Shown here: in pieces, positions 37,982 through 62,633 of the stretch
How positions within the stretch are numbered: position 1 is the stretch's first letter
Layout: every line of letters starts with the position of its first letter
Assembly (NCBI GenBank): GCA_001791305.1
Contig: MGEI01000003.1
Location: 13,926 to 77,925 of the forward strand
Length of the DNA: 64,000 nucleotides
DNA from: Candidatus Uhrbacteria bacterium RIFCSPLOWO2_01_FULL_47_17
GTDB taxonomy: Bacteria > Patescibacteriota > Patescibacteriia > UBA9934 > GWF2-40-263
Direction: 5' to 3'
Translations under genes and position numbers: made by a program
Notes under the pieces: model-generated
Told to the model about the DNA's origin: nothing
What the model saw: the letters and a program-made list of their open reading frames with translations, nothing else
Database searches by the model: none

Positions 37982-38064
37982 TCCACGCTTTTTTGTTTGA
38001 CGTATTTTCCCCTTGTGATACCTTGCCACGTGGCGCGTTCGAGAGATTCGCGCATGAGGTTTAC

Positions 38065-39348
38065 ATGCCAGCAACGGTCGTTCTTGGTGCTCAGTGGGGC
38101 GATGAGGGGAAAGGGAAGATCATCGATGCACTTGCGGAAGACGCAGACGTCGTGGTTCGATTCCAAGGCGGAGCGAACGCGGGGCACACGATCGTGATTG
38201 GCGACAAGACCTACCCGATTCACTTGCTCCCGAGCGGAATTTTTCGCAAGGGCAAACTGAACTTGGTCGGGCCCGGCGTCGTGTTTGATCTTGCGGTTGG
38301 ATTGCAAGAACTCGAACTCGCAAACGAGTTCGGTTCGCGCGTCATGCTCGACGAGCAGACCCCTATTGTTCTTCCGATGCATCGACTGATTGATGCGGCA
38401 CGTGAAGTAGCGGCGGGGTCGTCGGCGATTGGGACAACCAAGCGCGGCATCGGTCCGGCGTACAGCGACTTCTGGCTGCGGCGATCTGTCACGTTCGACG
38501 ACCTGCGTTCACGCGAGAAGCTTGAAGCGGCGCTTAGTCAACAATACTGGAACGAGATGTTCGCCGTCGTTTCCATGCTCGGCGGCGCCAGCATTGATTT
38601 TCGTTCGCTCGGTATGCCATTCAATCCGCTTCATCGAGAAGACACGATTGACTGGTGTCTGAGCGCGGGCGAAGTCCTTGCGCTGCACATTAGTGACACG
38701 CGCGCGTGCGTTCACAATGCGCTCACACGAAACCAAAATGTGTTGTTCGAAGGCGCACAAGGCGTCATGCTCGATGCCTATCACGGCTCACGTCCGTACG
38801 TGACATCATCGCTTTGTACCGCCGCGGGCGTTTCGGCGTCGTTCGGTGTCTACACGTTCGACCGTGTGATCGGTGTCGCGAAAGCGTACACCACGCGCGT
38901 GGGCGCCGGGCCGTTTCCAACGGAACGTCTCGATACACAAGGGGAAGAACTGCGTCGTCGTGGTCATGAATTCGGAACGACAACAGGACGTCCACGTCGA
39001 TGCGGATGGCTGGATCTTCCGGCGCTTCGCTACGCGTGTCGTGTGGGCGGAATCACGGAACTTGTGATCACGAAGCTTGATATTCTGACTGATCACCCCC
39101 GTATTTTTGTCTGTGATGATTACGCAAACTTTGATGAGCACGCAACGCTCACACATTCCGTTTTGCAATCGGCTAAGACACGCTACCGACGCATGTGTGG
39201 TTGGAAAGAAGACTTGTCGATGCATGAGCATTTCAACGATTTGCCTCTCTCGGCACATATGTACATTGACTACATCGAAGTGGCCACCTACACAGCCGTT
39301 TCCGGCGTCGGTGTCGGCGCAGAACGCAATCAGATTCTCTGGCGTTAA
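38065..39348 (+). CDS. purA: Adenylosuccinate synthetase
   Basis: VVLGAQWGDEGKGKIID...RFQGGANAGHT, GIGPAYSD, TTGRPRRCGW are PurA signatures; ATG at 38065. Confidence 0.9.
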   Translation: MPATVVLGAQWGDEGKGKIIDALAEDADVVVRFQGGANAGHTIVIGDKTYPIHLLPSGIFRKGKLNLVGPGVVFDLAVGLQELELANEFGSRVMLDEQTPIVLPMHRLIDAAREVAAGSSAIGTTKRGIGPAYSDFWLRRSVTFDDLRSREKLEAALSQQYWNEMFAVVSMLGGASIDFRSLGMPFNPLHREDTIDWCLSAGEVLALHISDTRACVHNALTRNQNVLFEGAQGVMLDAYHGSRPYVTSSLCTAAGVSASFGVYTFDRVIGVAKAYTTRVGAGPFPTERLDTQGEELRRRGHEFGTTTGRPRRCGWLDLPALRYACRVGGITELVITKLDILTDHPRIFVCDDYANFDEHATLTHSVLQSAKTRYRRMCGWKEDLSMHEHFNDLPLSAHMYIDYIEVATYTAVSGVGVGAERNQILWR

Positions 39349-39410: not shown

Positions 39411-40391
39411 ATGGAAAAGAAATTCGTCTCCAATAAAGCGTTTCTCGTAAATCCGCAAGGGAAAATCTTGTTTGTTCGGCATACGGGCAAAAATCCGGAT
39501 GCGTGCTATGAACCACCGGGCGGGCGCATGGATGCAAATGAATCTTTGCTCGAGGGGCTTCAACGAGAATTGCGTGAGGAGCTTGGAATTGAAATCGAAC
39601 CATCAAAAGCGCGACCGTTCCACACGGACCATTGGCGATTTGAGGATGGTGATCAGGACGCAGTCGTTGGAATTTTTTACATTGTTCCGATCGGAGACGT
39701 TTCTGTTCAACTTTCGCATGAGCACACAGAACATGTCTGGATTGATCCGCGACAAGAAACAACGGTTCCTATGTTCGAGTCTCTCCGCCGCGCTCTCGAC
39801 GTGTATCGCGCGCATGAGGGAATTGTGATCGCAAACGATCGTGATCTCATCGGCCATCAAGGTTTCGGCCTCATTCAAGTGATCACCGGAAACGGAAAAG
39901 GGAAGACCACGTCCGCGACCGGACTTATGGTTCGCGCGGTTGGTGCCTCGAAAAAAGTTGGTGTTGTGTATTTCGACAAAGGCGGTGAGTCGCATTATTT
40001 TGAACGTGATGTTCTGCGCAACCTCGGTGTCGATCTTGTAGCAACCGGTCGAGACAGAATCGATCCCATCACAGGTCGATTTGATTTTTCGATTCAACAC
40101 GTCGATCGAGAGGAAGCCGCTCGCGGACTTCTCGAAGTTGAGCGCATGTTCGAAGCAGGCTACGACCTCATCATCATGGACGAGATCAACTCGACAACGG
40201 ATCTTGGAATGCTCGCCGCTGAGGATGTTCTCGCATTACTCGAGAAGAAGCCCGAGAAGACAGAGCTCGTGTTTACAGGACGAAACGCCCCGCAGGCATT
40301 CCGCGATCGCGCGCATCTCGTGAGCGAGGTTGGACTGAAGAAACATTATTTCTATTCTGGCGTGAAAGCGCGCGAGGGATTGGATTTTTAA
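39411..40391 (+). CDS. Fusion of an N-terminal Nudix hydrolase and a C-terminal ATP:cob(I)alamin adenosyltransferase (CobA/CobO/BtuR family)
   Basis: Nudix box GGRMDANESLLEGLQRELREELGIE; C-terminal GLIQVITGNGKGKTTSATGLMVRAVGASKKVGVVYFDKGG...DLIIMDE matches the CobA/BtuR P-loop family. Confidence 0.65.
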   Translation: MEKKFVSNKAFLVNPQGKILFVRHTGKNPDACYEPPGGRMDANESLLEGLQRELREELGIEIEPSKARPFHTDHWRFEDGDQDAVVGIFYIVPIGDVSVQLSHEHTEHVWIDPRQETTVPMFESLRRALDVYRAHEGIVIANDRDLIGHQGFGLIQVITGNGKGKTTSATGLMVRAVGASKKVGVVYFDKGGESHYFERDVLRNLGVDLVATGRDRIDPITGRFDFSIQHVDREEAARGLLEVERMFEAGYDLIIMDEINSTTDLGMLAAEDVLALLEKKPEKTELVFTGRNAPQAFRDRAHLVSEVGLKKHYFYSGVKAREGLDF

Positions 40392-41943: not shown

Positions 41944-43158
41944 TTACTTTCCAAGCGCATTTAATCTTGCCGCAAGATCGATGTTTTTTGGTGTTGTCAC
42001 AAGAAGGATTAAACTGATGACGCATGTGACAACACCAATGATGCCGATCGTTTGCAAATGTCCGAATGCGCCAGAGAGGGATCCCGCAAGGACCGGACCA
42101 ACAATAAAGCCAAGATTGGTAAATGAATCCTGAAGTAATTCAATATCCTGTTCTTTGTTTGGAACATCAGAGACGTAATCTGCATACGCGCCGCGAATGG
42201 CGGGCCAGGTAATGCCTGTACAGACCGCACAGAGAAAACTAAGAAAGATAAGCGCGAACGGATTGCGGACGACCAAAAAAAGCATCATGAGTGTGGAGCC
42301 AACGAGAAGGGTGACAAATGCAACGCGTTTTTTTGAACGCTTTCCAATAATTTCTCCAATGATCCAACCAACAATTAAAAGAGGAAGTTCATGGGCAAAA
42401 AGAAAGAGTCCATTAAATTCAAATGGCCACGATGTTGGAAGTTCAATAAGCGGAGCGATCATCCAATACGTGGATTCGATCATCATGAGCATGGTTGAGA
42501 CCAAAAAAACGGGAAACAAGATACTGACCATGTCTTTGTGAAGATGCATTTCGGAAAAAAACGTGACAAGATGTTTTTTTGTTTTGGGTGTGTGTTTTTC
42601 TGGAGAGATGCGTCTGAGAACAAGATAAAAAATAAACGCGATTCCAAGAAATCCCCAGGCAAAGTAAAAAAGACTTGCGTCTAAGGAATCCTTCATGAAG
42701 GTGCTTGCAAGGATTGGCGCGATCAAATATCCAAACGCAATAAATACATCCACAACTCCGGCGCTCGACGCATGTTCTTCTTTTGGTTGTGTGCGTCCAA
42801 TAAAATCGAGCGTTCCGCAATTATACAAATCGTAATAAATGCCCCAGACAATCATTCCAAGAAACAAAAGCGGCATCGATTGCCCTTTCCAAAGAATGAG
42901 TGGAAACGTGGCAGCCATGAGAAGCATGACCAAAAACATGCGCCGATAGGTTGCTTTCTTTAAAATGTGTGTAAGCAGAAAATCAAAGATAATTCCCGCA
43001 ATCGATGAGCTTCCAATAATAAGTCCCATCTGCGCTTCTGATAACCCGGCGCCCGTAATAATAAGCGGCACATGAAACATCATCATTCCATCAAAAATGA
43101 GGAAAAAGAATAACATGATGCATAAGACATAGAGCGAACGGTGTGTTTTTCCATACAT
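41944..43158 (-). CDS. MFS transporter
   Basis: 12 predicted TM segments, MFS-like loop motifs; start trimmed to MYGKTHRS. Confidence 0.65.
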   Translation of the reverse strand: MYGKTHRSLYVLCIMLFFFLIFDGMMMFHVPLIITGAGLSEAQMGLIIGSSSIAGIIFDFLLTHILKKATYRRMFLVMLLMAATFPLILWKGQSMPLLFLGMIVWGIYYDLYNCGTLDFIGRTQPKEEHASSAGVVDVFIAFGYLIAPILASTFMKDSLDASLFYFAWGFLGIAFIFYLVLRRISPEKHTPKTKKHLVTFFSEMHLHKDMVSILFPVFLVSTMLMMIESTYWMIAPLIELPTSWPFEFNGLFLFAHELPLLIVGWIIGEIIGKRSKKRVAFVTLLVGSTLMMLFLVVRNPFALIFLSFLCAVCTGITWPAIRGAYADYVSDVPNKEQDIELLQDSFTNLGFIVGPVLAGSLSGAFGHLQTIGIIGVVTCVISLILLVTTPKNIDLAARLNALGK

Positions 43159-43296
43159 TTTGACATGAGAAAAGACGTGATAGATATTTGGCACATGCGT
43201 GAATTTAAGAATTGCTCTCAGTATATCATGGTTTTTAAGGGGTTTTGGATTGTTTCGAAAAAGAAAAAACCCATCGCTGTTCGCGAGGGGTTGAGG

Positions 43297-44268
43297 TTAC
43301 CGACCCAGACTTCCGGGATCTTTCCAGCTGTCGTAATCCACATACGCGGCGAAGATGGGCGCCGTGACGCCGTTGCGGGTGATGGCGAGCAGGAACGGCT
43401 TGTCGATGATGAGCTTGTTGTCGTGTGGCGACATGCTGCGCGACACCATCATTTCGTCCGCCGCACGAGCGCGCGCGCCGGTTTCGTTCATCTTGAGCGT
43501 GGCCTGCTGCATCGCTTGCGCGATGACGGCATACATTCCATTGTCACCGGTTGTGTGGAGTCCCGGCAACCAGTCGAGCGACTGCTTGCATGCAAGGTCC
43601 ACTTTTGGAATCACGACCGTGCACGAGCGCGCGCTTTGCTGGGCGCCTTTGATCATGACGTCGACGAGATTGAGCAGATTGAGAACATCCACGGGCGGAC
43701 GTTCCGCTTCCATGATGTGCACGATGTCACCGGACTTGGTACTGAGCATGATGTGATGACCGACCATCTGAAGATGTTCGTTGATGGCGGTCGGTTCAAA
43801 CGGATCATTCTTCAGTTCGAATCCAGCAAAGTGCTGGCCGCCTGGAATGATGATCGGAGTATTTGTGCCCGCCTTCAGCCACTCGACAAGAACGTCGAGA
43901 ACGGCCGCGGTGGCGATCGCCCCGTCCGTGAGCGGATCGGTGATCTGAGCCTGCCAGCCATGCTTGCGCAGGAAGGCGATGTGATTCTCAATGCTGTCGG
44001 TCGCGTTCGCTTCGATTTCGGGCACACGCGAGAGATCACGCATACCCGGTCCGTACGTGTATTGGAGCCAAAGATTCTGAACCTCGTTTGTGGGCTTCCA
44101 CACGCGATTTTCGCCGAGCATGAGATCCACGGCCTTGAGAGCCGCGACGGTGGTCAGAGGGGAAGTGGCAAGACTGCTCACGATGTTTTCCTTTGAAAGA
44201 GGCCTTTCTGCGTCAAACCCACCTTGGGTAGGACGCGTGAGAATACCGCATTTTGGGGATTTTGTCAA
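43297..44268 (-). CDS. Serpin-family protein (compact; true start probably downstream of the annotated ATG)
   Basis: C-terminal hinge and strand s1C motifs KMNETGARARAADEMMVSRS...IIDKPFLLAITRNGVTAPIFAAYV; N-terminal NIVSSLATSP like serpin N.FSP.S; GC-elevated; a promoter-like 16-mer lies inside the first 45 nt of the ORF. Confidence 0.5.
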   Translation of the reverse strand: MTKSPKCGILTRPTQGGFDAERPLSKENIVSSLATSPLTTVAALKAVDLMLGENRVWKPTNEVQNLWLQYTYGPGMRDLSRVPEIEANATDSIENHIAFLRKHGWQAQITDPLTDGAIATAAVLDVLVEWLKAGTNTPIIIPGGQHFAGFELKNDPFEPTAINEHLQMVGHHIMLSTKSGDIVHIMEAERPPVDVLNLLNLVDVMIKGAQQSARSCTVVIPKVDLACKQSLDWLPGLHTTGDNGMYAVIAQAMQQATLKMNETGARARAADEMMVSRSMSPHDNKLIIDKPFLLAITRNGVTAPIFAAYVDYDSWKDPGSLGR

Positions 44269-45033: not shown

Positions 45034-48000
45034 ATGCCAGATGGATCACATCCAGGATACTCCGGATATAATGAAAAAAAGGGTTACGGTATTCACACAG
45101 AGAAACCAAAACCTGTTGAAAACATTCGACCTCCGGAAAAAGATCCGAAGAATTTTTTTGATCGAAAACGAGACGAATGGATGAATGCAATGAATGATCG
45201 AAATCTCGCGTCAGATATTGCCCAATCGATTCGTTCTGTTCTCTTTGCGATTCCAGAGGGAAAAACTCCGCGTACGCAAGAAGAGACGCACACGTTATAT
45301 GAAGGAATTGAAACACTAGTCCGAAATAAAATGATCTCGATGCGTCTTTCAGGGCTCTATGGAGATGACTTACGTTTTGTCACGCTACCACCCTGGTATC
45401 GAAAAGATTTTTTTGAATTTATTGATCACAAAATCCCATCCCTGCTTTTGGATAATCCAAAACAAGATCTTGATTCGTTTGCCATACTTGAGTCTGTTGA
45501 TTATGTGAACGACAAGACGCGTTGGCAACAAGAACATCGAGACGTCATTCACTCAAGTGAGCGTCTGGCAAAATTTGCCGATGCTGTTTCTCAGATTTTT
45601 ATTAAGGGAGATTATACATTGAGATATTTTGTGAATGCGTTTGAAACGTCCTATGCGGCTCCGCGCAGGGCGTATGGCTTTCATCGAGATTGGGGTTGGA
45701 GAGACGGTGCACAACAAGAACGAGAAGATGCCTATGAAAAAGAGATGGTTCAATTTAATGAGCAGGTAAAAGATGATGCGCTTTTTGATGCAACCATAGA
45801 AACACTCAAACAAATCACGTTACAGAATGACTCTTATCAATCTGAGATGGATTACGAAGGTTTCATCAGGCTGACTCCTGAAGATCGTGTTGAATTTTTG
45901 AGTAAGGTGCCACAGTTTTCTGCTAAGGGGATCGGTGCATCTTTTCTTTTGAATCATCGCGCTTACTTTAAAAACGCAGACCCATCGAAAGAGGGATTTG
46001 CGATGTTTCAAACCCCAAAAGAAAAATATGAGTGGCTTGATCGATGTTTGAATGCGATGTTTAATGGATATAGTCAAAAAAATAATGAACTCGTTGGAAT
46101 GTTTGTAAAAGAGGCGCTCGCGAATCCTGTACGTGATAAGAAGAAACAAAGTGGCATTGGATCCGCACAGTTAAAAGGAATCGATCCACGCATGGCGAGC
46201 GAAATCGACGAAGACTTGGATGAGGATCAAGATGACTCTTCGCGTGAAGCGCGTGAAGCAAACAATTTGCAAAGGCGTGCAAAAGAATTCGTTCAAAAGG
46301 CAATGGTGTCCGCAATTGACAATGGGTACATGTCTTTTGATACGTTTTCTAAGATGGAGAAACTGCTCGGAGAAACAGGATTAAAAATGGCTCGTGAATT
46401 CGATCGAACAGCCATACAGGTGATAAAGGATGAAGATTTGGGAAGTGCGGTGGGTTATGTGAATGATAAAAAGTTTGGAAGATATCTTCCAAACACCCAT
46501 AAGCAATTTGTTGCACGTATCATTGAAAAAGTCGGGGTTGATGCTTGGATAAGTGAAAGTGTTGCAGCGAGCTTTTCTTCTTTTATTAACCGACCGGACG
46601 CAGAAGAACTGGCGCGTAAGTTGTCGGGAAAACTTTCAAACGCACAAGCACTTTATAAATATTTTCTTGATTCTTCCGAATCAAAGCCTTGGCAAAAGAA
46701 TCTCATGTCAGAGATGGAAGCCATGTATACATCTGCCGTGTTAAACCCACCACCGCCAAAATCGCGCGATTTTGGAACAAAAGAAACGTTTCTTGATGCG
46801 GATCCATATGAAAAGCACCCACATAAATATGGGGGCAGCAGCATGCGTTTGGGTGATGTGATGTCCGGAAAGAAAACACCGGAAGAAATCGGGCTTGATT
46901 TGAATCCTGAAAACGTGGAATTTTTGCGTGAAGCGAATCGTATTTTGGATGAAGAGCATCAAGCATTTTTGGGTGCGGTTGATAAAAGCGCCCTCATTCC
47001 GCCGGAAGACAAGATTGCCTACATGAATCCGAAGGAAAGTTTGGTGAAGATGAATGATGTGAAAGAGACCGTTCGCGCATTTCTTGCGCGTTACTTGGCT
47101 CAATCGGTCGTAAAGCGCACAGATCAATTGACATCAAAGACGTTTTCATCTGAAGCACTTCGCGTCTTGATTCATGATGGGTATGCAAATTTCTTGGATG
47201 TCTACGCAACCGACATTCCGCTTTACGATAAGCTGTACGAAGAATTTGATGCGCTTCGTGAAGCCGGACGTTCTCCGCTTGAGGTGTATCTTGGTCGTGA
47301 CGGCATTTATGCCTACATTGGACGCAAAGCGCAAGACGCAATGCGTAAAGCGGTTCTTGGAAAAGAAAAAGTAGAGGGATTGCGCGCGGAGGGTGAGGTC
47401 GTTACGATCGAACCAAAATATTTGGTCTATCCAAGTTATGTGCGCGATGAGGTTGCGACAGACACAAAAATAGAATATTTGAATTACAGTGGCGTCACAA
47501 AAGAATCCGATCCCCTTTTTTATGACACAGGGTTTTCAGGAAGTATCCCTCAACAAATCATGCAAATCATGGGATTTGATAAAGCTCAAATTGAAGAGCG
47601 CATTCGCCTCCTTTCGGCTCCAACGAATGCACGTCGTATGCGCGGAATTCCGGCCAATGCAACATCAGATGTGGTTGGAAAAATTGAAGGGAATGCAAAA
47701 TCGGAAGACACAGCAAGTGGACTTGTCAAAAACAAAGAGACGGGAAGGATCACGCATTCTGCGAGGCCCGCACGCCCCGAGGATCAATTTAAGTTTTCCT
47801 TGATTCGCCAAGCGATTGCGCGTCATTACCTCATTCAGGAAAAATTGCATTACAAAGTTCCAGAAAATACGATTCTTGATTCGGAAAAGTTTACCCTGCG
47901 TATTCGTTCAGAATATGCGGAGCAGTTACCAGATGCATTCAAAAACAACCCGATCCAATTTTTAGAAACACAAGGCACGCCGGAAGACGGAGCGGTCCTC

Positions 48001-48498
48001 ATGAAACTCAAAGATGGAACGGAAGTGATGGCGCGTCGTGTTGCGTGGACAAAAACCGAGCAGGCTCAAACGGAATACGCGATTTTGATTTCCGCCAAAA
48101 AAGCCGGCGTGCCCGCTGCCGAACCAGTTGGGTTTGTCACAGGAAAATCGAAAGAAGATGAGAGTGTGATTCTCTCAAAGAAAATTGAGGGAGTTCCGGG
48201 AAAGCGTTTTGAGAAAACATTACGTGAGTCTGGATACACAGAAGAAAAAATCGCGGAGCTCATGCGCGAGCTTCAGGGACAGATCGAAGCGGTGACGTCT
48301 TTGCTCAAACAAACATTAAACATTACGGGAAACTGGAAGGTGAATGACGTCGCCGTTCAGTTCAATGAAGAAACAGGTGTAATTGAGCGCGTGATTCCGC
48401 TCAAGTGGGAACAAGTAAAACGACGCGATGAGGAAAAAGAAAAACGCGTGAGGGAATTGATTAAAAAGCCTGAAAGAGCTGATTATTATGACAGATAA
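45034..48498 (+). CDS. Large orphan protein (1,154 aa), mostly helical, C-terminal region with weak protein-kinase-like fold features
   Basis: No signal peptide or TM helix; no confident domain; C-terminal ...KKAGVPAAEPVGFV...ILSKKIEGVPG...NITGNWKVNDVAVQF only loosely resembles the RIO/Kdo-kinase layout. Confidence 0.5.
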   Translation: MPDGSHPGYSGYNEKKGYGIHTEKPKPVENIRPPEKDPKNFFDRKRDEWMNAMNDRNLASDIAQSIRSVLFAIPEGKTPRTQEETHTLYEGIETLVRNKMISMRLSGLYGDDLRFVTLPPWYRKDFFEFIDHKIPSLLLDNPKQDLDSFAILESVDYVNDKTRWQQEHRDVIHSSERLAKFADAVSQIFIKGDYTLRYFVNAFETSYAAPRRAYGFHRDWGWRDGAQQEREDAYEKEMVQFNEQVKDDALFDATIETLKQITLQNDSYQSEMDYEGFIRLTPEDRVEFLSKVPQFSAKGIGASFLLNHRAYFKNADPSKEGFAMFQTPKEKYEWLDRCLNAMFNGYSQKNNELVGMFVKEALANPVRDKKKQSGIGSAQLKGIDPRMASEIDEDLDEDQDDSSREAREANNLQRRAKEFVQKAMVSAIDNGYMSFDTFSKMEKLLGETGLKMAREFDRTAIQVIKDEDLGSAVGYVNDKKFGRYLPNTHKQFVARIIEKVGVDAWISESVAASFSSFINRPDAEELARKLSGKLSNAQALYKYFLDSSESKPWQKNLMSEMEAMYTSAVLNPPPPKSRDFGTKETFLDADPYEKHPHKYGGSSMRLGDVMSGKKTPEEIGLDLNPENVEFLREANRILDEEHQAFLGAVDKSALIPPEDKIAYMNPKESLVKMNDVKETVRAFLARYLAQSVVKRTDQLTSKTFSSEALRVLIHDGYANFLDVYATDIPLYDKLYEEFDALREAGRSPLEVYLGRDGIYAYIGRKAQDAMRKAVLGKEKVEGLRAEGEVVTIEPKYLVYPSYVRDEVATDTKIEYLNYSGVTKESDPLFYDTGFSGSIPQQIMQIMGFDKAQIEERIRLLSAPTNARRMRGIPANATSDVVGKIEGNAKSEDTASGLVKNKETGRITHSARPARPEDQFKFSLIRQAIARHYLIQEKLHYKVPENTILDSEKFTLRIRSEYAEQLPDAFKNNPIQFLETQGTPEDGAVLMKLKDGTEVMARRVAWTKTEQAQTEYAILISAKKAGVPAAEPVGFVTGKSKEDESVILSKKIEGVPGKRFEKTLRESGYTEEKIAELMRELQGQIEAVTSLLKQTLNITGNWKVNDVAVQFNEETGVIERVIPLKWEQVKRRDEEKEKRVRELIKKPERADYYDR

Positions 48499-48537: not shown

Positions 48538-49077
48538 ATGTTATACTTCGTTCATATGTGGATCCTCTTTCTCTTCGGCTTCATCCTCCTCGCCTCCTTC
48601 GCCTACGCCGCAAACGCCGGCGCGCCTTGGGTTCCCACATGGAAAAAAGATTTTGAACGCATTGTAAAACTCGCGGATCTTAAACCTGGTGAAACATTCA
48701 TCGAACTTGGATGTGGAAACGGACGAGTGTGTCGTGCGGTTGCGGCGAGATCGAAGGGTGCGCATGTTATTGGCCTTGAGCTTTCACTGCTTCAAGTTTG
48801 GATCGCTTGGCTACAGTCGAGAATTAGCGGTCTCACGAACATCAAAATCAAACTCGGCAATGCATTTCACACAAACCTCTCGAGCGTCGATGTTGTTTAT
48901 ATGTTTCTTATGCCGGAGACGTACGAGAAGATTCGTCCCAAACTCGAAAAAGAACTAAAGCCTGGCGCACGGGTGATCACCTATGTGTGGCCAATTCCAG
49001 GATGGACGCCGGATGTTGTGGATGAAGCGGAAGGGAGTCAGAAGATTTATTTATTCATCAAAAAACCCAACGGATAA
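48538..49077 (+). CDS. Class I SAM-dependent methyltransferase (small, N-terminal TM or signal helix)
   Basis: FIELGCGNGR motif I; VVYMFLMPE motif. Confidence 0.6.
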   Translation: MLYFVHMWILFLFGFILLASFAYAANAGAPWVPTWKKDFERIVKLADLKPGETFIELGCGNGRVCRAVAARSKGAHVIGLELSLLQVWIAWLQSRISGLTNIKIKLGNAFHTNLSSVDVVYMFLMPETYEKIRPKLEKELKPGARVITYVWPIPGWTPDVVDEAEGSQKIYLFIKKPNG

Positions 49078-49096
49078 TCCGTTGGGTTTTCGTTTT
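49066..49096. terminator. Bidirectional terminator hairpin CCCAACGGAtaaTCCGTTGGG with flanking A/T runs
   Basis: 9-bp perfect stem; A6 upstream, T-run downstream; lies between the convergent methyltransferase and the minus gene. Confidence 0.5.
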
Positions 49097-50639
49097 ACTT
49101 TCCAAGCTCGATATTCTTTTTTCTCTTCAGCGCGCCAATAATTCCAAACGGAATCATGCGCTTCACAATCTCGAGCACTTCTTCGCCACTCATGCGCGTG
49201 GCCGGGGTGGTTCCTGGATTCACACCGCCGTTTTGAATGGTGTTTGCTGCGTCGTCGTAATACCACTCGTCGAGACCTTCGATGCGACCGGGGGACTGGA
49301 ACAATACGCGGTCAAATTTGATTCCTGTGTCTTTGCGTTTCGCCTCTTCTTTGCGCAGTGCCTCGACGACAGGTCGAAGATCAATGCTGCGAAGTTGTCG
49401 AGTAATAATATTTGTGTGTCCACTCGACGCGCGTCGTTGTACAACAAGATCCATTCGTTTGGCCGCGCGGAGGAATCCGGCAAGCGCAATGTTGTCTGTC
49501 TCGAGGTACGCGCATTTCAAATCCGCATTGCCTTGTTTTAGATCGAACTGGTTTGCTTTGCCTGTGTCGAGTAGTATCTGCCATTCGAGCGGGAGTTCTT
49601 CCGATCGTTTTGTTTCTTCGAGGACATGAAAATGGATGAGCGGGAGAATATAATCGAGCGTGCGTTTTGGATCATCTGGCAACGCGCGGTTTAAATTCAT
49701 CATGAGTCCGGAAAGTCCAAACGCGCGATCAAGCGGATCGTCGCTTATGGTTCCTTTACCCTCGAGGTCATCGCGTTTCGCCCAGGCGAGACATTTTTTG
49801 AGCGCGTTGTTTTGATCGATGCCGAGATACTTTGCGATGAGTGTCGATGCGCAATCTTCACGCTTACCTGATTCTGTGTTTGCAATATGGTGATCGAAGA
49901 GTCCGCCACCGAGGTCTATTGTGAGCACGCCTTCGGCCAGAAGTTGATCCGGATTTTTTCCTTCTGGAAGCGAAGACCAAAACAAAACAGGCGCGACATC
50001 AATTCCAGGAAACGCTTCTTTGCCGAAACGTGCGAGGATGTAGAGGGCGACACAAGTGTCCGCTTGGATTTTTGGAAAGATGACGACAGCCTCTACAGGA
50101 ATAGGTGCGTGTGTTTGTTTTGCGTTCGGATCGATAAAGGTTTGTTTCGCATCATCCCAAAACAGTTTCACAAATTTTTCACCCTCTTTTCCAACAAGCA
50201 CAAGACGCCCATTTACTGTGAGGGTAGGTACAAGGTCTGCTTCTTTTGGTTTACTACTCGTAAATGGATCGGCACCTCCGATCGACAAATGAAAATCTTT
50301 GTCGTTTTCTGGTAAAAGAAGCTGATCATCAAGAATAGTTTTTCGAACGGCATTCGATGGGTTCTCCTCAGTCAGGTTTGGAGTAAGATAGGTATATCCG
50401 TCGATCACGCCAAATCCATCAAACACAACAGAAGTTTGTGAAAGGGGAATGCCAAGTTTTTTTAACGCATCGGTGAGTTTATTTGAATCAACAGAATCAA
50501 AATACCCGAGCGTCATATGATGCTCCGGCATTTTCACACGTTTCTCTAACCCATTTTTTCGCCATTTCACAATCTGTGGATGCGCTTCAACGGTGTCGAA
50601 CGGAAAATTGTAACCAATCCATGCGGACTTTAATTGCAT
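49095..50639 (-). CDS. Two-domain protein: N-terminal 2H phosphoesterase (LigT-like, two H-x-T/S-x motifs) fused to an uncharacterised domain carrying a GGGLFDHH motif
   Basis: HHMTLGYF and FHLSIGGA about 90 aa apart = 2H superfamily signature; C-terminal 350 aa of unknown family with DLGGGLFDHH. Confidence 0.5.
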   Translation of the reverse strand: MQLKSAWIGYNFPFDTVEAHPQIVKWRKNGLEKRVKMPEHHMTLGYFDSVDSNKLTDALKKLGIPLSQTSVVFDGFGVIDGYTYLTPNLTEENPSNAVRKTILDDQLLLPENDKDFHLSIGGADPFTSSKPKEADLVPTLTVNGRLVLVGKEGEKFVKLFWDDAKQTFIDPNAKQTHAPIPVEAVVIFPKIQADTCVALYILARFGKEAFPGIDVAPVLFWSSLPEGKNPDQLLAEGVLTIDLGGGLFDHHIANTESGKREDCASTLIAKYLGIDQNNALKKCLAWAKRDDLEGKGTISDDPLDRAFGLSGLMMNLNRALPDDPKRTLDYILPLIHFHVLEETKRSEELPLEWQILLDTGKANQFDLKQGNADLKCAYLETDNIALAGFLRAAKRMDLVVQRRASSGHTNIITRQLRSIDLRPVVEALRKEEAKRKDTGIKFDRVLFQSPGRIEGLDEWYYDDAANTIQNGGVNPGTTPATRMSGEEVLEIVKRMIPFGIIGALKRKKNIELGK

Positions 50640-50780: not shown

Positions 50781-51347
50781 TTACGCCGCGGGCTGGGTGA
50801 GCTTCGCGCGGCGGGGCTTGCGGGCACCGCGGACGGGAGCGCGCAGGTAGGCGGCTTCGTCCATGATGATGATGTGCTGGTCGCGTTTCTTGTCGTTCGA
50901 CACGTGGGCGAAGTTGCCGTCCAGGTCGATCATGTGCGCGTACTCGCGGCCCTGGTAGTCGGACGCTTCCGTGTCGTGGATGATCACGTTGCACTCCGAA
51001 GGCTTCGTGCTCGGCCAGACGTTCATGTGGAAGCCGTAGTTGCAGGTTCCGTTGCCGTCGGCCTTGTGCCAGACACGCAATTTGATCTCGATGCGACCCG
51101 AGACCACACCGTCAGCGTTCGGCTGGAGGCCGTCGCGGAGATGGATGTCGACCTCGTTGATCTTCGTGTGGAGGAACTTGTTGCCGTCACGCTCGCCGGG
51201 GGCGAAATCGAGACCGACCACGTGCAGCGTGCCTTCGACCGTCTTGAGTGTGTAGACCCGCTTGCGCAGGACGCCTTCGACATTGTCGCGGTCGGCCGTC
51301 AGGGTGGCGATGAAACGTTCGAAAACACCGTTCGTCTGCAAGGACAT
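50781..51347 (-). CDS. Hypothetical protein encoded in a strongly GC-rich (about 63-65%) island; probable horizontally acquired gene
   Basis: ATG at 51347 with AGGAG SD; third-position GC bias very different from neighbours; long antisense shadow ORF on the plus strand. Confidence 0.4.
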   Translation of the reverse strand: MSLQTNGVFERFIATLTADRDNVEGVLRKRVYTLKTVEGTLHVVGLDFAPGERDGNKFLHTKINEVDIHLRDGLQPNADGVVSGRIEIKLRVWHKADGNGTCNYGFHMNVWPSTKPSECNVIIHDTEASDYQGREYAHMIDLDGNFAHVSNDKKRDQHIIIMDEAAYLRAPVRGARKPRRAKLTQPAA

Positions 51348-51652
51348 GGGGAACTCCTGAAAAGAGCACGCGGAGTGCTCGTTGGTGCATTGCATTTGCT
51401 TTGCACACGCTTGGGCTTCATCCAACCTAGGATTCGACCACTTCGCTCACGGCTTTACAAAGCCAGGAACGAAGAGGCCGCATCTCATGGTCGAGAACAC
51501 AATATACCATAAAAATGCACTTTTGTCAAGAGTTGAGCGAAGAAACTGCCCGTAAAATGGGCTTATTTCGTGAGTAGACAGAATTTCGTTATCGAGTATA
51601 ATCGCCAAAGAAGTAAAAAAATAAGGAGGAACTGCTCCAACGTAAAATACAT

Positions 51653-56272: not shown

Positions 56273-56902
56273 ATGTCCATCACTGTTTCTCAGCACCCGA
56301 TCGTGCGCACTGCGCTTACGCATCTACGCGACAAAAAGACAACGCCGGAAGTGTTTCGCCGTGAATTGCATCGTCTGAGTCAGGTGCTCGCGGTGGATGC
56401 AACACAACATCTCGTGATCGATGGGTATTCCGTTCAAACCCCCCTTGCGAAAGCACCAGGGTTCGAGCTGAGTGGACAGCAAGCGTTGATCCCGATCATG
56501 CGTGCGGGTAGCGGCATGCTCGCTGCGTTTCTCGGTTTCCTGCCGAACGCATATGTCTGGCACATGACCATGTCGCGTAACGAGGAAACACTCGAGCCTG
56601 AGTTTCATGGAAGTAAAGTTCCCGCAAAGATCGCGCCGAACATCGACACGTGTTTCATTCTCGACCCCATGCTCGCAACGGGCGGCAGCGCGTGTCTCGC
56701 GATTGATTATGTGAAGAAGGCAGGTGCAGAACGCATCGTCTTTGTCGGTGTGCTCGGTGCACCAGAAGGCGCGGCGCGTTTGCAAAACGCACATCCGGAT
56801 GTCCCGATCATCATCGGTGCGATGGACGAACGTCTGAACGAACACGGGTACATCATGCCCGGTCTCGGTGACGCAGGCGATCGCTTGTTCCCGACAACAT
56901 AA
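56273..56902 (+). CDS. upp: Uracil phosphoribosyltransferase
   Basis: PRPP-binding FILDPMLATGGS and C-terminal YIMPGLGDAGDRLFPT. Confidence 0.9.
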   Translation: MSITVSQHPIVRTALTHLRDKKTTPEVFRRELHRLSQVLAVDATQHLVIDGYSVQTPLAKAPGFELSGQQALIPIMRAGSGMLAAFLGFLPNAYVWHMTMSRNEETLEPEFHGSKVPAKIAPNIDTCFILDPMLATGGSACLAIDYVKKAGAERIVFVGVLGAPEGAARLQNAHPDVPIIIGAMDERLNEHGYIMPGLGDAGDRLFPTT

Positions 56903-61044: not shown

Positions 61045-61119
61045 GGCCTCATCGTCTAACGGTTAGGACAGCAGGTTCTCATCCTGTAAATCGGAGTTCG
61101 ATTCTCCGTGGGGTCACCA
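61045..61119 (+). tRNA. tRNA-Glu (anticodon CUC), CCA encoded
   Basis: Manual fold: acceptor GGCCTCA/TGGGGTC (2 G-U pairs), D arm GTCT-AACGGTTA-GGAC, anticodon stem GCAGG/CCTGT with loop TTCTCAT, T arm CGGAG-TTCGATT-CTCCG, 75 nt. Confidence 0.7.
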
Positions 61120-62623
61120 CAAGGGACTCGCCATCATGGCGGGTCTTTTGTTTTTGTAAAATGAGCGAAATTCTTGTAGTTCCAAAACCTTTTCCCTTAA
61201 AATACGGAATTCCTTCAGGAAAAATCAATTTTTGGAACTTAATTCTTCGTTCTCCTTGTAAGTCATTCCATTGTTGATCAAGATGCTCAACAAATTTGGT
61301 TGCATAAGTAATTGCGAATTCAACATCTAGTTGGTCAGTCTTGTAATCATTCATGGATACGCGGATTGTTGCCATTTCGTTTTCAATCTCAGATTTTCGT
61401 TCTTGATATACCTCTTTCGTATAAGATCCATCCTCAAACATCTCACAAATTCTTTTGCGCTTGGTTTCCAACACACCAAGTTGTTTTACGTATTTTGTTG
61501 CATCTGATTCAAAACTACCGCGTTCTTCTGCCCATCTATCAATTACGCTTTCTCGTAAAAGATCTAAGTGCTGTTTAGTCGGTTCTAATTCTTGCAGAAC
61601 TTTCATAAAGTCTCTTTCCACCGTTTCTTTTGAGAGTGATTTGTTTTGCATGGCACAATCTGGAGTGTAGCAATGATAATATCCGTACTGACCGCCAACT
61701 CCTCTCGATCGACTACCAGTGACAGTGTTGTTACATGCTCCGCATCGAAGAATCTTCTTTAATGGAAAAAGAGGATTAAAGCTTGATCGCGGTTGTTTCT
61801 TAATGCGTTTGCCTTTTCGGATTGCGATGATCTGATACATTTCATCTTCTGTGATCATCGCTGTGTGAAGACCTTTTATCTCTTCATCTTTCACCCATGG
61901 ATTCTGAATAATCCCGGCATAGTATTTCAAATACTGACCAAGCATCTTGTCGACCATTTGCTTTGTCGTTTTTCTATTACGTATTTTCTCTAAGCCTTCC
62001 TGTTTCAAGTAAGCACAAATTTCAGATAACTCGATCTCACCACGAGAGAATCTTTTTAATGCTCTCTGGAGAATAGGAAAAACAACCGGATCAATCCCAT
62101 CAGCTGTATTTTTCTTCTCTCCGTGCATCTTGGAACGATTACTCAAATAACCGAGCGGAGGCTTCCACGGCGTAATTCCTTGCCTTACACGCGCGATCAT
62201 TCCGTCAACGCTTCTTTGAGAGCGAACTGCGTTATCAAACTCTGCTGTTCCGGCCAGAATTGTTTCAAGAAACTTTTGCGAAGGATTGTTTCCAATAAGT
62301 TCCGTGACTGAATGAAGGGTCGTACCGTAATCTTGTAAGAGCTTGCGAATGCTGAAATGATCTTCCGTATTTCTTGCAAAGCGATCAACTTTTACAACAA
62401 CAAATGCATCTATCTTTCCTTTATTCTGATGACAGAATGCAAGTGCACGAAGAAACTCAGTTCGCTCAGACGATTTTGCAGACTCTCCCTCTTCTCGGAA
62501 GACCTTAAGAACTTCTAAACCTTTTTCCAGACAATACTGTCGACATTTTCTTTCTTGATCTTCAAGAGATGTACCATTAACCTGTTCATTTGAACTAACG
62601 CGTGTGTAAATAATTGCTTTCAT
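61079..62623 (-). CDS. Large serine recombinase (integrase) of an integrative element
   Basis: MKAIIYTRVSSNEQ resolvase-type catalytic Ser; recombinase domain; C-terminal Cys zinc ribbon/coiled coil; 3' end overlaps tRNA-Glu by about 40 nt. Confidence 0.85.
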   Translation of the reverse strand: MKAIIYTRVSSNEQVNGTSLEDQERKCRQYCLEKGLEVLKVFREEGESAKSSERTEFLRALAFCHQNKGKIDAFVVVKVDRFARNTEDHFSIRKLLQDYGTTLHSVTELIGNNPSQKFLETILAGTAEFDNAVRSQRSVDGMIARVRQGITPWKPPLGYLSNRSKMHGEKKNTADGIDPVVFPILQRALKRFSRGEIELSEICAYLKQEGLEKIRNRKTTKQMVDKMLGQYLKYYAGIIQNPWVKDEEIKGLHTAMITEDEMYQIIAIRKGKRIKKQPRSSFNPLFPLKKILRCGACNNTVTGSRSRGVGGQYGYYHCYTPDCAMQNKSLSKETVERDFMKVLQELEPTKQHLDLLRESVIDRWAEERGSFESDATKYVKQLGVLETKRKRICEMFEDGSYTKEVYQERKSEIENEMATIRVSMNDYKTDQLDVEFAITYATKFVEHLDQQWNDLQGERRIKFQKLIFPEGIPYFKGKGFGTTRISLILQKQKTRHDGESLVVTPRRIELRFTG

Positions 62624-62633
62624 ACGTTGATTC

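What the first reader, a model, noticed from the sequence alone, without database searches (positions are those of the whole stretch)
49095..50639. 2H-phosphoesterase (LigT-like) fused to a 350-aa unknown domain with a GGGLFDHH motif
Two H-x-T/S-x motifs (HHMTLGYF and FHLSIGGA) with correct spacing identify the 2H fold (2',5'-RNA ligase / cyclic phosphodiesterase). The long C-terminal extension bears a Gly-rich loop followed by DHH, reminiscent of metal-dependent phosphoesterase motifs. Such fusions typically act on RNA ends or cyclic nucleotides (RNA repair, tRNA processing, or cyclic-oligonucleotide signal degradation). The gene is adjacent to the GC-rich foreign gene.
Basis: partly seen in the sequence, partly recalled or inferred. 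Interest (0 to 1): 0.55.

Follow-up and report, generated by a model that had tools for sequence, protein, structure and literature searches.

The report
2H esterase fused to MYG1-like DHH phosphoesterase
This gene of a tiny groundwater bacterium (Candidatus Uhrbacteria) joins a cyclic-phosphate-opening "2H" enzyme to a previously unrecognised, very divergent DHH/MYG1-type metal phosphoesterase, a pairing that has arisen repeatedly in these bacteria and probably clears RNA breakdown products that end in a cyclic phosphate.

Summary
ORF 49095-50639 (-) encodes a 514-aa protein, identical to hypothetical protein A3B20_00620 of Candidatus Uhrbacteria. It has exactly two H-x-T/S motifs (H41-M-T43, H117-L-S119) and a GGGLFDHH stretch.

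The N-terminal 170 aa is a 2H phosphoesterase. Evidence is a sub-threshold Pfam PF13563 hit and a Foldseek match to E. coli LigT/ThpR (E 4.6e-5, prob 1.0).

The "unknown" C-terminal 330 aa is a two-lobed DHH/DHHA1-fold phosphoesterase. All top PDB and viral fold hits are DHH enzymes. A broad family profile aligns to MYG1/UPF0160 at 91% probability, yet no Pfam or PDB sequence model detects it.

The module defines a large unannotated family: 1476 clusters at 50% identity, and every named source examined is Patescibacteria. About a third of 264 collected members are fused to a 2H domain. These 2H domains fall into four divergent subtypes, three of which occur at either terminus.

I infer a two-step enzyme. 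The 2H domain opens 2',3'-cyclic phosphate ends, and the DHH module dephosphorylates or degrades the product. The substrate is untested.

The neighbouring "GC-rich foreign gene" is not foreign. It is a conserved upstream partner in 28 loci, with unexplained high GC3 in every locus checked.

This is a new variant of known kinds, of moderate interest.

The parts
49095..50639 (-). Whole gene: 514-aa 2H + DHH/MYG1-like fusion protein (stop codon 49095-49097)
   Evidence: ORF list. 100% match to hypothetical protein A3B20_00620 of Ca. Uhrbacteria. AF2 model pLDDT 94.4, pTM 0.72.
50130..50639 (-). N-terminal 2H phosphoesterase domain (residues 1-170)
   Evidence: Pfam PF13563 E 9.2e-5, residues 19-124. 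Foldseek LigT/ThpR 5ldm_A E 4.6e-5, prob 1.0, TM(target) 0.54. Conserved in fused homologues.
50511..50519 (-). 2H motif 1: H41-M42-T43 (in HHMTLGYF), on strand 40-51
   Evidence: Translation check. H41 and T43 invariant in A6. Aligns with the HxT of 5h7e and 2fyh. Strand assignment.
50283..50291 (-). 2H motif 2: H117-L118-S119 (in FHLSIGGA), on strand 118-121
   Evidence: Translation check. H117 invariant and S119 at least 90% conserved. Strand assignment.
50094..50129 (-). Interdomain linker (residues 171-182); variable in length in homologues
   Evidence: Alignment A1 shows insertions of up to about 80 aa here. pLDDT dips to 78.
49674..50093 (-). DHH-type catalytic lobe (residues 183-322)
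   Evidence: Foldseek of the C-terminal model: PDB 6mtz, Rv2837c 5cet, NrN 9lq9 and NrnA 8iu7 at E 4e-4 to 1e-2. Viral DHH phosphohydrolases and NrnB at E 4e-7 to 1e-4, prob 1.0. hhalign to MYG1 at 91%.
50058..50060 (-). Motif I aspartate D194 (in IQADT), right after the first strand
   Evidence: D in 246 of 247 family members. Aligns with the D of MYG1 FHCDE.
49887..49919 (-). Motifs II + III: I-D242-LGGGLF-D249-H250-H251
   Evidence: D242 193/247, D249 239/247, H250 191/247, H251 241/247. Aligns with MYG1 VDVGGEYDP..YDHHQ.
49725..49775 (-). Conserved loop RDDLEGKGTISDDPLDR (residues 289-305); candidate motif IV and substrate lid
   Evidence: R289, D291, G294, G296, S299, D301 and D304 invariant in A1. 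D291 in 237/247. Aligns with MYG1 EEiDAiDNGI. Lower pLDDT.
49563..49670 (-). Long connecting helix (residues 324-359) between the two lobes; contains H338
   Evidence: Helix 324-359 in the model. H338 invariant in A1.
49098..49562 (-). DHHA1-like substrate-binding lobe (residues 360-514), with G407-H408 and WYYDDAANTIQNGG
   Evidence: Foldseek also hits the AlaRS C-terminal DHHA1 domain 2zvf, prob 0.96. G407 224/247, H408 184/247, W459 241/247, N470 237/247.
49416..49421 (-). G407-H408: likely counterpart of the DHHA1 'GGGH' / MYG1 'GGH' histidine
   Evidence: Conservation. Position by analogy only. MYG1 H344 is described as the RNA-selectivity histidine in PMC6582341.
50648..50676 (-). Weak sigma-70-like promoter match just upstream of the ATG
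   Evidence: TAGGCA-17-TATACT, 9 of 12. A consensus match only.
49062..49090 (.). 13-bp palindromic hairpin flanked by A and T runs, between the convergent stops: probable bidirectional terminator
   Evidence: Terminator scan. Sequence AAAACCCAACGGATAATCCGTTGGGTTTT.
50781..51347 (-). Conserved upstream partner gene (188 aa, unknown fold, GC3 0.84)
   Evidence: jackhmmer finds it directly upstream on the same strand (gap 32-665 bp, one 51-bp overlap) in 28 distinct loci. GC3 is 0.69-0.93 in all 17 loci checked. No Pfam, PDB or PADLOC hit.
51501..51529 (-). Strong promoter-like site upstream of the partner gene
   Evidence: TTGACA-17-TATATT with TG, 11 of 12.

Best explanation
The gene encodes a cytoplasmic, bifunctional two-module phosphoesterase.

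Module 1 (residues 1-170) is a metal-independent 2H enzyme. Its two H-x-T/S motifs would hydrolyse a 2',3'-cyclic phosphodiester, on an RNA 3' end, a short oligonucleotide or a 2',3'-cNMP, to a 2'- or 3'-phosphomonoester.

Module 2 (residues 183-514) is a divergent, MYG1-like member of the DHH/DHHA1 superfamily. Candidate metal ligands are D194, D242, D249, H250, H251 and D291. The lobe with G407-H408 and the WYYD...QNGG segment would hold the nucleotide. This module would then remove the exposed phosphate and/or degrade the short RNA exonucleolytically to mononucleotides, as NrnA/CnpB-type and MYG1 enzymes do.

A flexible linker of variable length joins the modules. This suggests sequential action on one substrate rather than a composite active site.

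Biological role (inferred): housekeeping clearance and salvage of the cyclic-phosphate-terminated products of metal-independent RNases. Patescibacteria depend heavily on nucleotide salvage (general knowledge of the group, not tested here).

What is shown: the two folds, motif conservation, the recurrent fusions and the synteny. What is inferred: substrate, order of reactions, products and physiological role.
For: Folds.
- 2H.
- DHH/DHHA1. The top 36 PDB hits and the top viral hits are all DHH-family enzymes, including nanoRNases NrnA/NrnB, Rv2837c/CnpB and NrN.
- MYG1: hhalign probability 91.4%, E 9e-7 over 237 columns, aligning motifs I, II, III and the D-x-x-G loop.

Catalytic residues conserved.
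- 2H: H41, T43 and H117 invariant.
- DHH module: D194 246/247, D249 239/247, H251 241/247, D291 237/247.

Functional coupling.
- Of 264 family proteins, 177 are stand-alone.
- 77 carry an N-terminal extension, and 72 of these have two or more HxT/S.
- About a dozen carry a C-terminal extension, and 10 of these have two HxT/S.
- The extensions fall into four 2H subtypes that are mutually very divergent (hhalign <10% except A-D at 77%).
- Subtypes A, B and C each occur both N- and C-terminally, which implies several independent fusions.
- Subtype A passes the Pfam LigT_PEase/PF13563 cut-offs. Subtype C reaches the tRNA-ligase CPD cut-off.
- No other known domain is recurrently fused.

Housekeeping character.
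- Genomic neighbours are variable core genes such as topA, secA, ribosomal proteins, dnaK and recA.
- There are no PADLOC defence hits.
- The family is broadly distributed across Patescibacteria lineages.

Precedent (my own knowledge, not tested here).
- ThpR/LigT converts RNA>p to RNA-2'p.
- NrnA and Rv2837c combine nanoRNase and pAp 3'-phosphatase activities.
- E. coli CpdB is a bifunctional 2',3'-cyclic phosphodiesterase/3'-nucleotidase.
- MYG1 is a 3'-5' RNA exonuclease dependent on its DHH motif (PMC6582341).
Against: No biochemical data exist for any member.

The canonical DHH motif I (DxD) is reduced to one invariant Asp, with T/E/N at the second position. The metal site may therefore differ from NrnA-type enzymes.

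A 2H enzyme of the ThpR type leaves a 2'-phosphate. No DHH enzyme is known to me to remove 2'-phosphates.

Stand-alone members rarely have a separate 2H gene within 6 kb: 3 found by the survey plus one noted earlier in L004. The DHH-like module therefore clearly also works without 2H.

The Foldseek TM-scores for the C-terminal part are low (about 0.25). This is attributable to lobe orientation but leaves the assignment at superfamily level only.

The gene context gives no direct link to an RNase or to salvage enzymes. The conserved partner has unknown function.
Confidence: 0.5

Rival explanations
1. RNA repair (end-healing) enzyme. The 2H domain opens the 2',3'-cyclic phosphate left by a ribotoxin or tRNA/rRNA-cleaving nuclease. 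The DHH module removes the monoester to give a 2',3'-diol end. An ATP-dependent RNA ligase can then seal it, analogous to T4 Pnkp or the CPD domain of fungal/plant tRNA ligase.
For: One fused 2H subtype (C) matches the fungal tRNA-ligase cyclic phosphodiesterase domain PF08302 at its cut-off. 2H enzymes are described as the specialists that clear cyclic ends before ligation (PMC7824862). The chemistry is the same as in the best explanation.
Against: The Pfam-annotated gene lists of the eight loci show no RNA ligase, polynucleotide kinase or RtcB. None of the recurrent neighbour clusters of the 81-locus survey that I identified was such a gene, though most of those clusters were not annotated. 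No kinase or ligase domain is ever fused. There are no defence-system hits. The closest characterised relatives of the DHH module are degradative exonucleases and nanoRNases.
Confidence: 0.15
2. Signal-nucleotide turnover enzyme. The DHH module hydrolyses c-di-AMP/pApA or cyclic oligoadenylates, like GdpP, Pde2, CnpB, NrN or the archaeal DHH-DHHA1 ring nuclease. The 2H domain handles 2'-5' linkages or the A2>p products of ring nucleases.
For: Fold hits include c-di-AMP/pApA phosphodiesterases (Rv2837c 5cet, S. aureus Pde2 8iu7) and the SAM-AMP-degrading NrN 9lq9. 2H hits include the viral and AKAP7 2',5'-phosphodiesterases. A RelA/SpoT gene lies directly downstream on the same strand in 9 loci.
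Against: No CRISPR, CBASS, cyclase or effector genes appear in the Pfam-annotated neighbour lists, and there is no PADLOC hit. The RelA link is confined to one related clade. c-di-AMP has only 3'-5' bonds, so it would not explain why 2H is the only recurrent fusion partner. No riboswitch for a signalling nucleotide lies upstream.
Confidence: 0.2
3. One or both modules are non-catalytic. The protein would then be a binding or scaffold protein, like the non-enzymatic DHH-fold proteins Cdc45 and the AlaRS C-terminal domain.
For: Cdc45/RecJ-like and AlaRS DHHA1 domains are among the fold hits. The family does spawn dead paralogues in which DHH is replaced by KY. A few fused members, such as P0052, have lost both HxT/S motifs.
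Against: In the window protein and in almost all orthologues, both HxT/S motifs and D194, D242, D249, H250 and H251 are retained under strong conservation. The contrast with the dead paralogues shows what loss of function looks like in this family.
Confidence: 0.04

Closest known systems
MYG1 / UPF0160 family (Pfam PF03690), a DHH-superfamily 3'-5' RNA exonuclease of eukaryotes and some bacteria
   Same: Profile-profile homology of the C-terminal module: hhalign 91.4%, E 9e-7, 237 columns. The motif layout matches:
- (H/Q)-x-D-(E/T) after strand 1.
- hydrophobic-D-x-G-G, followed closely by D-H-H.
- an acidic D..G loop.
- a C-terminal lobe with a G-H.
46-56 family members even carry the MYG1-like H-x-D-E. 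The DHH motif is catalytic in MYG1 (PMC6582341).
   Different: No PF03690 hit for any member. With the narrow alignment the probability is only 32%. The spacing between motifs II and III is 7 residues, against about 13 in MYG1. The C-terminal lobe did not align. MYG1 is not known to me to be fused to 2H domains. The taxonomic range differs: every named source examined is Patescibacteria.
NrnA / NrnB / Rv2837c (CnpB) / Pde2 stand-alone DHH-DHHA1 nanoRNases and pAp phosphatases
   Same: Same two-lobe DHH + DHHA1 architecture joined by a long helix, and similar size (about 320 aa). These are the best solved-structure and viral fold matches. They have conserved DHH and a G-H in the second lobe.
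   Different: No sequence-level match to PF01368 or PF02272, except one member at E 0.0016. No PDB profile hit. Motif I lacks the second Asp. TM-scores are only about 0.25.
E. coli ThpR (LigT) RNA 2',3'-cyclic phosphodiesterase and relatives (drCPDase, YjcG)
   Same: The N-terminal domain has the same fold (5ldm/4qak E 5e-5 to 6e-4, prob 1.0). It has two H-x-T/S motifs 76 residues apart on beta strands. It gives a weak Pfam PF13563 hit.
   Different: About 14% identity. Below the Pfam cut-off for this protein. It is fused to a second phosphoesterase, whereas ThpR is a single-domain protein.
Bifunctional cyclic-phosphate processing enzymes: CpdB (2',3'-cyclic phosphodiesterase/3'-nucleotidase), T4 and C. 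thermocellum Pnkp, and the fungal/plant tRNA ligase CPD domain. The comparison is from my own knowledge.
   Same: Same proposed logic: one polypeptide that first opens a 2',3'-cyclic phosphate and then deals with the resulting monoester or RNA end.
   Different: The fold combinations are entirely different: calcineurin-type or HAD phosphatases, and kinase or ligase modules. No homology beyond the CPD domain of tRNA ligase, which is also 2H.

Membership tests
2H phosphoesterase superfamily (LigT/ThpR-like) | Two H-x-T/S-x motifs with hydrophobic neighbours, roughly 50-100 residues apart | tested here: met
   H41-M-T43 and H117-L-S119 are the only H-x-[TS] in the protein. They are invariant or nearly so in orthologues.
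2H phosphoesterase superfamily (LigT/ThpR-like) | Profile match to a curated 2H family above its cut-off | tested here: inconclusive
   PF13563 scores 23 bits against a 27-bit cut-off, E 9.2e-5, for the window protein. 14 of the 50 aligned sequences match at E <= 1, best 2.7e-7, and 3 match LigT_PEase. PF13563 is precomputed for P0005 and P0014.
2H phosphoesterase superfamily (LigT/ThpR-like) | 2H fold, with both motifs on strands lining the central cleft | tested here: met
   Foldseek hits LigT, drCPDase, VP3/ns2, AKAP18 and Usb1 with prob 0.9-1.0 and TM(target) 0.5-0.6. The motifs lie on strands 40-51 and 118-121. Cleft geometry was not inspected because no coordinates were available.
2H phosphoesterase superfamily (LigT/ThpR-like) | Motifs align with the catalytic HxT/S of solved 2H enzymes | tested here: inconclusive
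   Motif 1 aligns with the HxT of 5h7e and 2fyh, but the hits are not significant (E 0.19-0.87). Motif 2 was not covered by those alignments.
DHH/DHHA1 phosphoesterase superfamily | Motif III D-H-H | tested here: met
   D249-H250-H251. D in 239, H250 in 191 (E in 45) and H251 in 241 of 247 members.
DHH/DHHA1 phosphoesterase superfamily | Motif I D-x-D after strand 1, and motif II Asp after a later strand | tested here: inconclusive
   D194 (246/247) follows strand 184-187, and D242 ends strand 238-241. The second Asp of DxD is T (172), E (46) or another residue.
DHH/DHHA1 phosphoesterase superfamily | Two-lobe DHH + DHHA1 fold | tested here: met
   C-terminal model pLDDT 92.7. The top 36 PDB hits are all DHH-family, best E 4.2e-4, prob 0.93-0.96. 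BFVD hits to DHH phosphohydrolases and NrnB reach E 3.8e-7, prob 1.0. TM is only about 0.25.
DHH/DHHA1 phosphoesterase superfamily | Sequence match to Pfam DHH (PF01368) or DHHA1 (PF02272) | tested here: not met
   None for the window protein or the 50 A1 members. One of 48 distant members matches at E 0.0016. PDB sequence profiles give nothing.
MYG1 / UPF0160 (PF03690) | Match to PF03690 | tested here: not met
   No hit.
MYG1 / UPF0160 (PF03690) | Profile-profile homology covering the catalytic motifs | tested here: met
   hhalign with 128 family sequences against 14 MYG1 sequences gives prob 91.4%, E 9.1e-7, 237 columns. With the narrow alignment A2 it gives only 32%, 45 columns.
MYG1 / UPF0160 (PF03690) | 3'-5' RNA exonuclease activity dependent on DHH | not testable with these tools
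   Activity is known for human MYG1 (PMC6582341). Nothing is known for this family.
NrnA-type nanoRNase / pAp phosphatase | DHHA1 GGGH motif and arginine cluster that bind the substrate phosphate | tested here: inconclusive
   Only G407-H408 (224 and 184 of 247) and R402 (154/247) are present. Equivalence is by position, not by structural superposition.

The most novel reading that the evidence does not exclude
The MYG1-like DHH module defines the so far unrecognised main nanoRNase / RNA-end-clearing enzyme of Patescibacteria. It would work only together with a companion: a fused 2H domain, a catalytically dead tandem paralogue (heterodimer), or the small GC3-rich partner protein. It would be specialised for RNA fragments ending in 2',3'-cyclic phosphate. 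By extension, this would suggest that cyclic-phosphate-terminated RNA is also the natural substrate class of eukaryotic MYG1.
Probability: 0.2. Interest if true: 0.7.

Novelty: new variant of a known kind. Interest (0 to 1): 0.55.

Why it matters
It assigns folds to a protein annotated only as "hypothetical". It also assigns a testable chemistry to a large unannotated family: 1476 clusters at 50% identity, 1059 of them at E <= 1e-10. That family is spread across the Patescibacteria, organisms with minimal genomes whose RNA turnover and nucleotide salvage enzymes are poorly known.

A 2H domain has repeatedly and independently been fused to this module. This is a strong Rosetta-stone signal that the two chemistries act on one substrate. 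It could guide biochemical work on how bacteria dispose of 2',3'-cyclic-phosphate RNA fragments and 2',3'-cNMPs. It may also guide work on the still unclear substrates of MYG1.

The analysis also uncovered two companion genes worth study: a dead paralogue and a conserved partner with anomalous GC3.

Tried and rejected
- **Direct sequence searches of the whole protein.** NCBIfam gave nothing. PDB phmmer and profile searches with A1 and A2 gave no meaningful hit.
- **Pfam DHH, DHHA1 or UPF0160 for the C-terminal part.** No hits in 50 members at E <= 1.
- **MYG1 relationship with the narrow alignment.** Only 32% probability. It became convincing only with a 128-sequence profile.
- **Defence-system hypothesis.** No PADLOC hit for the fusion or its partner.
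- **Riboswitch or known RNA upstream.** Nothing in Rfam; the whole window contains only two tRNAs.
- **"Foreign gene" explanation for the GC-rich neighbour.** Rejected because of conserved synteny and conserved GC3 excess.
- **Partner as a diverged 2H, DHH-like, paralogue or MYG1 fragment.** hhalign below 1% for all four.
- **Partner identity.** No hit in Pfam, the PDB profile search or the word-index homologue search.
- **Second 514-aa ORF at 61079-62623 as a paralogue.** It is unrelated and is a serine recombinase.
- **Literature search for a described 2H-DHH fusion or a Patescibacteria nanoRNase.** Nothing relevant beyond general statements. One search failed on a term that was too short, and on term syntax.
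- **Separate 2H genes next to stand-alone members.** Only 3 in 81 loci plus one in L004, so there is no systematic operon.
Full report
**1. What is there**

The minus-strand ORF 49095..50639 encodes 514 aa. It is identical to "hypothetical protein A3B20_00620" of Candidatus Uhrbacteria bacterium RIFCSPLOWO2_01_FULL_47_17. The window therefore comes from a Patescibacteria (CPR) genome.

The N-terminus matches those of full-length homologues, so the start codon is right.
- H41-M-T43.
- H117-L-S119.
- I-D242-LGGGLF-D249-H250-H251.

Two H-x-[TS] in 514 residues is not remarkable in itself, since 0.97 are expected by composition. The signal comes from conservation, profile matches and structure.

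**2. The N-terminal domain is a 2H phosphoesterase**

- Pfam gives a single hit, PF13563 (2'-5' RNA ligase superfamily), at residues 19-124 with E 9.2e-5 and 23 bits. The cut-off is 27 bits.
- Among the 50 aligned sequences (about 30 with the N-terminal domain), 14 hit PF13563 (best 2.7e-7) and 3 hit LigT_PEase.
- An AlphaFold2 model built on a 50-sequence alignment is confident (pLDDT 94.4).
- Foldseek against the PDB matches E. coli LigT/ThpR (5ldm_A E 4.6e-5, prob 1.0, TM(target) 0.54; 4qak). It also matches D. radiodurans CPDase, the rotavirus VP3 and MHV ns2 2',5'-phosphodiesterases, AKAP18, Usb1, plant CPDase and B. subtilis YjcG.
- Both motifs sit on beta strands.
- H41, T43 and H117 are invariant and S119 is at least 90% conserved in 12 diverse N-domains.
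- A profile of those domains finds, at non-significant E-values, the 2H proteins 2fyh and 5h7e. The family's e-y-H-v-T-v aligns on their catalytic H-I/V-T-L.

The 2H call stands.

**3. The C-terminal 330 aa is a divergent DHH/DHHA1-fold enzyme related to MYG1**

No sequence method recognises this part:
- Pfam and NCBIfam give nothing.
- PDB profile searches give nothing.

Structure does recognise it. A model of residues 178-514 (pLDDT 92.7, pTM 0.84) shows three elements:
- a small alpha/beta lobe;
- a 36-residue helix;
- a second alpha/beta lobe.

The top 36 PDB Foldseek hits are all DHH-family proteins:
- H. pylori 6mtz (E 4.2e-4).
- M. tuberculosis Rv2837c/CnpB (7.7e-4).
- NrN 9lq9.
- Family II pyrophosphatases.
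- SH1221.
- S. aureus NrnA/Pde2.
- RecJ.
- The DHHA1 domain of archaeal AlaRS.

Against predicted viral structures the matches are stronger, E 3.8e-7 to 1e-4 with prob 0.99-1.0. They hit "DHH family phosphohydrolase", "exopolyphosphatase" and "oligoribonuclease NrnB". TM-scores are low (about 0.25). I attribute this to different lobe orientation, so the assignment is at superfamily level.

Conserved residues fit the DHH motif positions:
- D194 follows strand 1 (246/247 members).
- D242 ends a strand.
- D249, H250 and H251 are kept in 239, 191 and 241 of 247.
- An invariant acidic loop R289-D-D291...D301..D304 follows.
- G407-H408 lies in the second lobe.

The canonical second Asp of motif I is absent. 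It is T in 172 members and E in 46.

I suspected a MYG1 relationship because of the motif "hydrophobic-D-x-G-G ... D-H-H".
- hhalign with the narrow alignment gave 32% probability over motifs I-II only.
- With a 128-sequence family profile it gave 91.4%, E 9.1e-7, over 237 columns.
- That alignment pairs P-h-l-D with F-H-C-D-E, IDvGGG..FDHH with VDVGGEYDP..YDHHQ, and RDDxxGKG with EEiDAiDNGI.

MYG1 is a DHH-dependent 3'-5' RNA exonuclease (PMC6582341). The module is best described as a new, MYG1-like branch of the DHH superfamily.

**4. Family, distribution and architectures**

A profile search of 1.84 billion representatives found 1476 clusters (50% identity) at E <= 1e-3 and 1059 at E <= 1e-10. 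Every named source I saw is Patescibacteria. They include Uhr-, Kerfeld-, Doudna-, Andersen-, Komeili-, Collier-, Taylor-, Yanofsky-, Giovannoni- and Niyogibacteria, plus Minisyncoccota and Paceibacterota. Several TPA records are titled "uncultured Gammaproteobacteria" but are 78-86% identical to the Uhrbacteria protein, so those titles look unreliable.

Of the 264 proteins collected:
- 177 are stand-alone, about 320-360 aa.
- 77 carry an N-terminal extension of at least 100 aa. 72 of these have two or more H-x-T/S.
- About a dozen carry a C-terminal extension. 10 of these have two H-x-T/S.

The extensions form four groups that are barely alignable to each other:

| Subtype | Character | Pfam support |
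|---|---|---|
| A | LigT-like | Passes the Pfam cut-offs, e.g. P0144 PF13563 2.8e-11 |
| B | Two HxT motifs | Only one weak 2H-SAK hit, so probable 2H |
| C | Short, 50-residue motif spacing | Matches the fungal tRNA-ligase CPD domain at its cut-off |
| D | The window type | Sub-threshold PF13563 for the window protein |

Subtypes A, B and C each occur both before and after the DHH-like module. No other known domain recurs. This pattern implies several independent fusions. It is the strongest evidence that the two modules cooperate.

**5. Genomic context**

In the window the gene ends 17 bp from the stop of a convergent small methyltransferase. A 13-bp palindromic hairpin flanked by A and T runs lies between them and is a likely bidirectional terminator.

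- Its coding frame is the minus strand (GC by codon position 0.61/0.39/0.84).
- Its likely extent is 50781-51347, 188 aa, starting MSLQTNG as in orthologues.
- jackhmmer on 81 distinct loci finds a homologue directly upstream on the same strand, with gaps of 32-665 bp (one case overlaps by 51 bp), in 28 loci.
- In all 17 loci checked its GC3 is 0.69-0.93, against 0.32-0.81 for the adjacent DHH-like gene (at most 0.65 in 16 of the 17 loci).
- The partner proteins are only 15-42% identical.

It is thus a conserved partner with an unexplained synonymous-site bias, not a recent import. Its fold is unknown:
- no Pfam, PDB or PADLOC hit;
- no relation to 2H, to the DHH-like module or to MYG1;
- only itself found by the homologue search.

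In 32 other loci, 31 of them with a stand-alone gene, the neighbour is instead a full-length paralogue (hhalign 99.4%, E 4e-21). In it DHH is replaced by K-Y and the other catalytic motifs are lost, so it is a dead partner.

The companions are almost mutually exclusive:

| Arrangement | Loci |
|---|---|
| Stand-alone + paralogue | 31 |
| 2H fusion + GC3-rich partner | 19 |
| 2H fusion only | 12 |
| Stand-alone + GC3-rich partner | 9 |
| Stand-alone, no companion | 9 |
| 2H fusion + paralogue | 1 |

Other recurrent neighbours look like clade-level synteny: RelA/SpoT downstream in 9 loci, and the convergent methyltransferase in 16. Wider neighbourhoods are ordinary core genes. There is no defence-system signature and no known riboswitch.

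**6. Mechanism**

*Shown:* two independent phosphoesterase folds with intact catalytic motifs. They are joined by a linker that varies from about 12 to about 90 residues among orthologues.

*Inferred:* sequential action on RNA-derived cyclic-phosphate species.
- The 2H domain opens the 2',3'-cyclic phosphate. ThpR-type enzymes give a 2'-phosphate (my own knowledge).
- The DHH module then removes the phosphate and/or degrades the short RNA. This would parallel NrnA/CnpB, which combine nanoRNase and pAp phosphatase activities, and MYG1.
- E. coli CpdB is a functional precedent for a bifunctional cyclic phosphodiesterase/nucleotidase (my own knowledge).

I favour a degradative, salvage-type role with confidence of about 0.5. 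The reasons are the housekeeping context and the absence of a ligase, kinase or defence linkage. Rival readings are RNA end-healing for ligation (0.15), signalling-nucleotide turnover (0.2) and non-catalytic roles (0.04).

Weak points:
- Motif I is atypical.
- No DHH enzyme is known to me to remove a 2'-phosphate.
- There is no biochemistry for any member.

**7. Novelty and verdict**

Four things are new:
- The "unknown" domain is recognised as a MYG1-like DHH/DHHA1 enzyme that no curated model detects.
- It founds a large Patescibacteria family.
- It has repeatedly been fused, on either side, to at least three or four 2H lineages.
- It has alternative companions: a dead paralogue and a GC3-rich partner.

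I found no paper describing this. I rate it a new variant of a known kind, with interest 0.55.

Noticed in passing
window 50781-51347 (-), promoter-like site 51501-51529: The 'GC-rich foreign gene' is a conserved upstream partner of the DHH-like gene in 28 loci. Its GC3 is 0.69-0.93 in every locus checked, although the proteins are only 15-42% identical. It has no detectable homology to anything known, and the cause of the synonymous-site bias is unexplained.
   Followed up: partly
L009:4851-5900, L072:4601-5689, L044:4197-5291, L006:4337-5404 and 28 other loci: Stand-alone members of the family usually sit next to a full-length paralogue (hhalign 99.4%). In it DHH is replaced by KY and the other catalytic motifs are lost. 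This suggests an enzyme/pseudo-enzyme pair. The arrangement is almost mutually exclusive with 2H fusion and with the GC3-rich partner.
   Followed up: partly
window 45034-48498 (+) and 48538-49077 (+): A 1154-aa protein with no Pfam hit is followed 40 bp later by a 179-aa SAM methyltransferase. The methyltransferase matches PADLOC mad2 (MADS system) at E 3.3e-21. It lies convergent to the DHH-like gene in 16 loci.
   Followed up: partly
window 61045-63773: A tRNA gene (61045-61116, +) overlaps the 3' end of a large serine recombinase gene (61079-62623, -; Resolvase + Zn_ribbon_recom). A Fic/DOC protein gene follows (62634-63773, -). GC drops to 0.39-0.41 here, so this is a probable integrated mobile element.
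   Followed up: partly
L001:7664-9202, L003:7918-9450 and 7 further loci: A RelA/SpoT-type (p)ppGpp synthetase/hydrolase gene lies directly downstream on the same strand in 9 loci of one clade. It is not present next to the window gene.
   Followed up: partly
window 20831-29518 (+): A giant 2895-aa protein with CarboxypepD_reg, Big_5 and fn3 repeats, probably a cell-surface protein.
   Followed up: no
window 39411-40391 (+): An unusual single ORF combining a NUDIX hydrolase domain (residues 10-116) with an ATP:corrinoid adenosyltransferase CobA/BtuR domain (153-326).
   Followed up: no
window 37993-39348, 41944-43194, 56273-56902: Nucleotide-salvage-type genes lie in the same window: adenylosuccinate synthetase, an MFS transporter with weak nucleoside:H+ symporter similarity, and uracil phosphoribosyltransferase. 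None is adjacent to the finding.
   Followed up: no
window 43297-44268 (-): A 323-aa ORF whose C-terminal 60 residues match the serpin family (PF00079, E 1.2e-7). Serpins are uncommon in bacteria.
   Followed up: no
L013, L014, L016 and other TPA_asm loci: Records titled 'uncultured Gammaproteobacteria bacterium' carry proteins 78-86% identical to the Uhrbacteria protein, with the same gene neighbourhood. The organism names in those records appear to be wrong.
   Followed up: no
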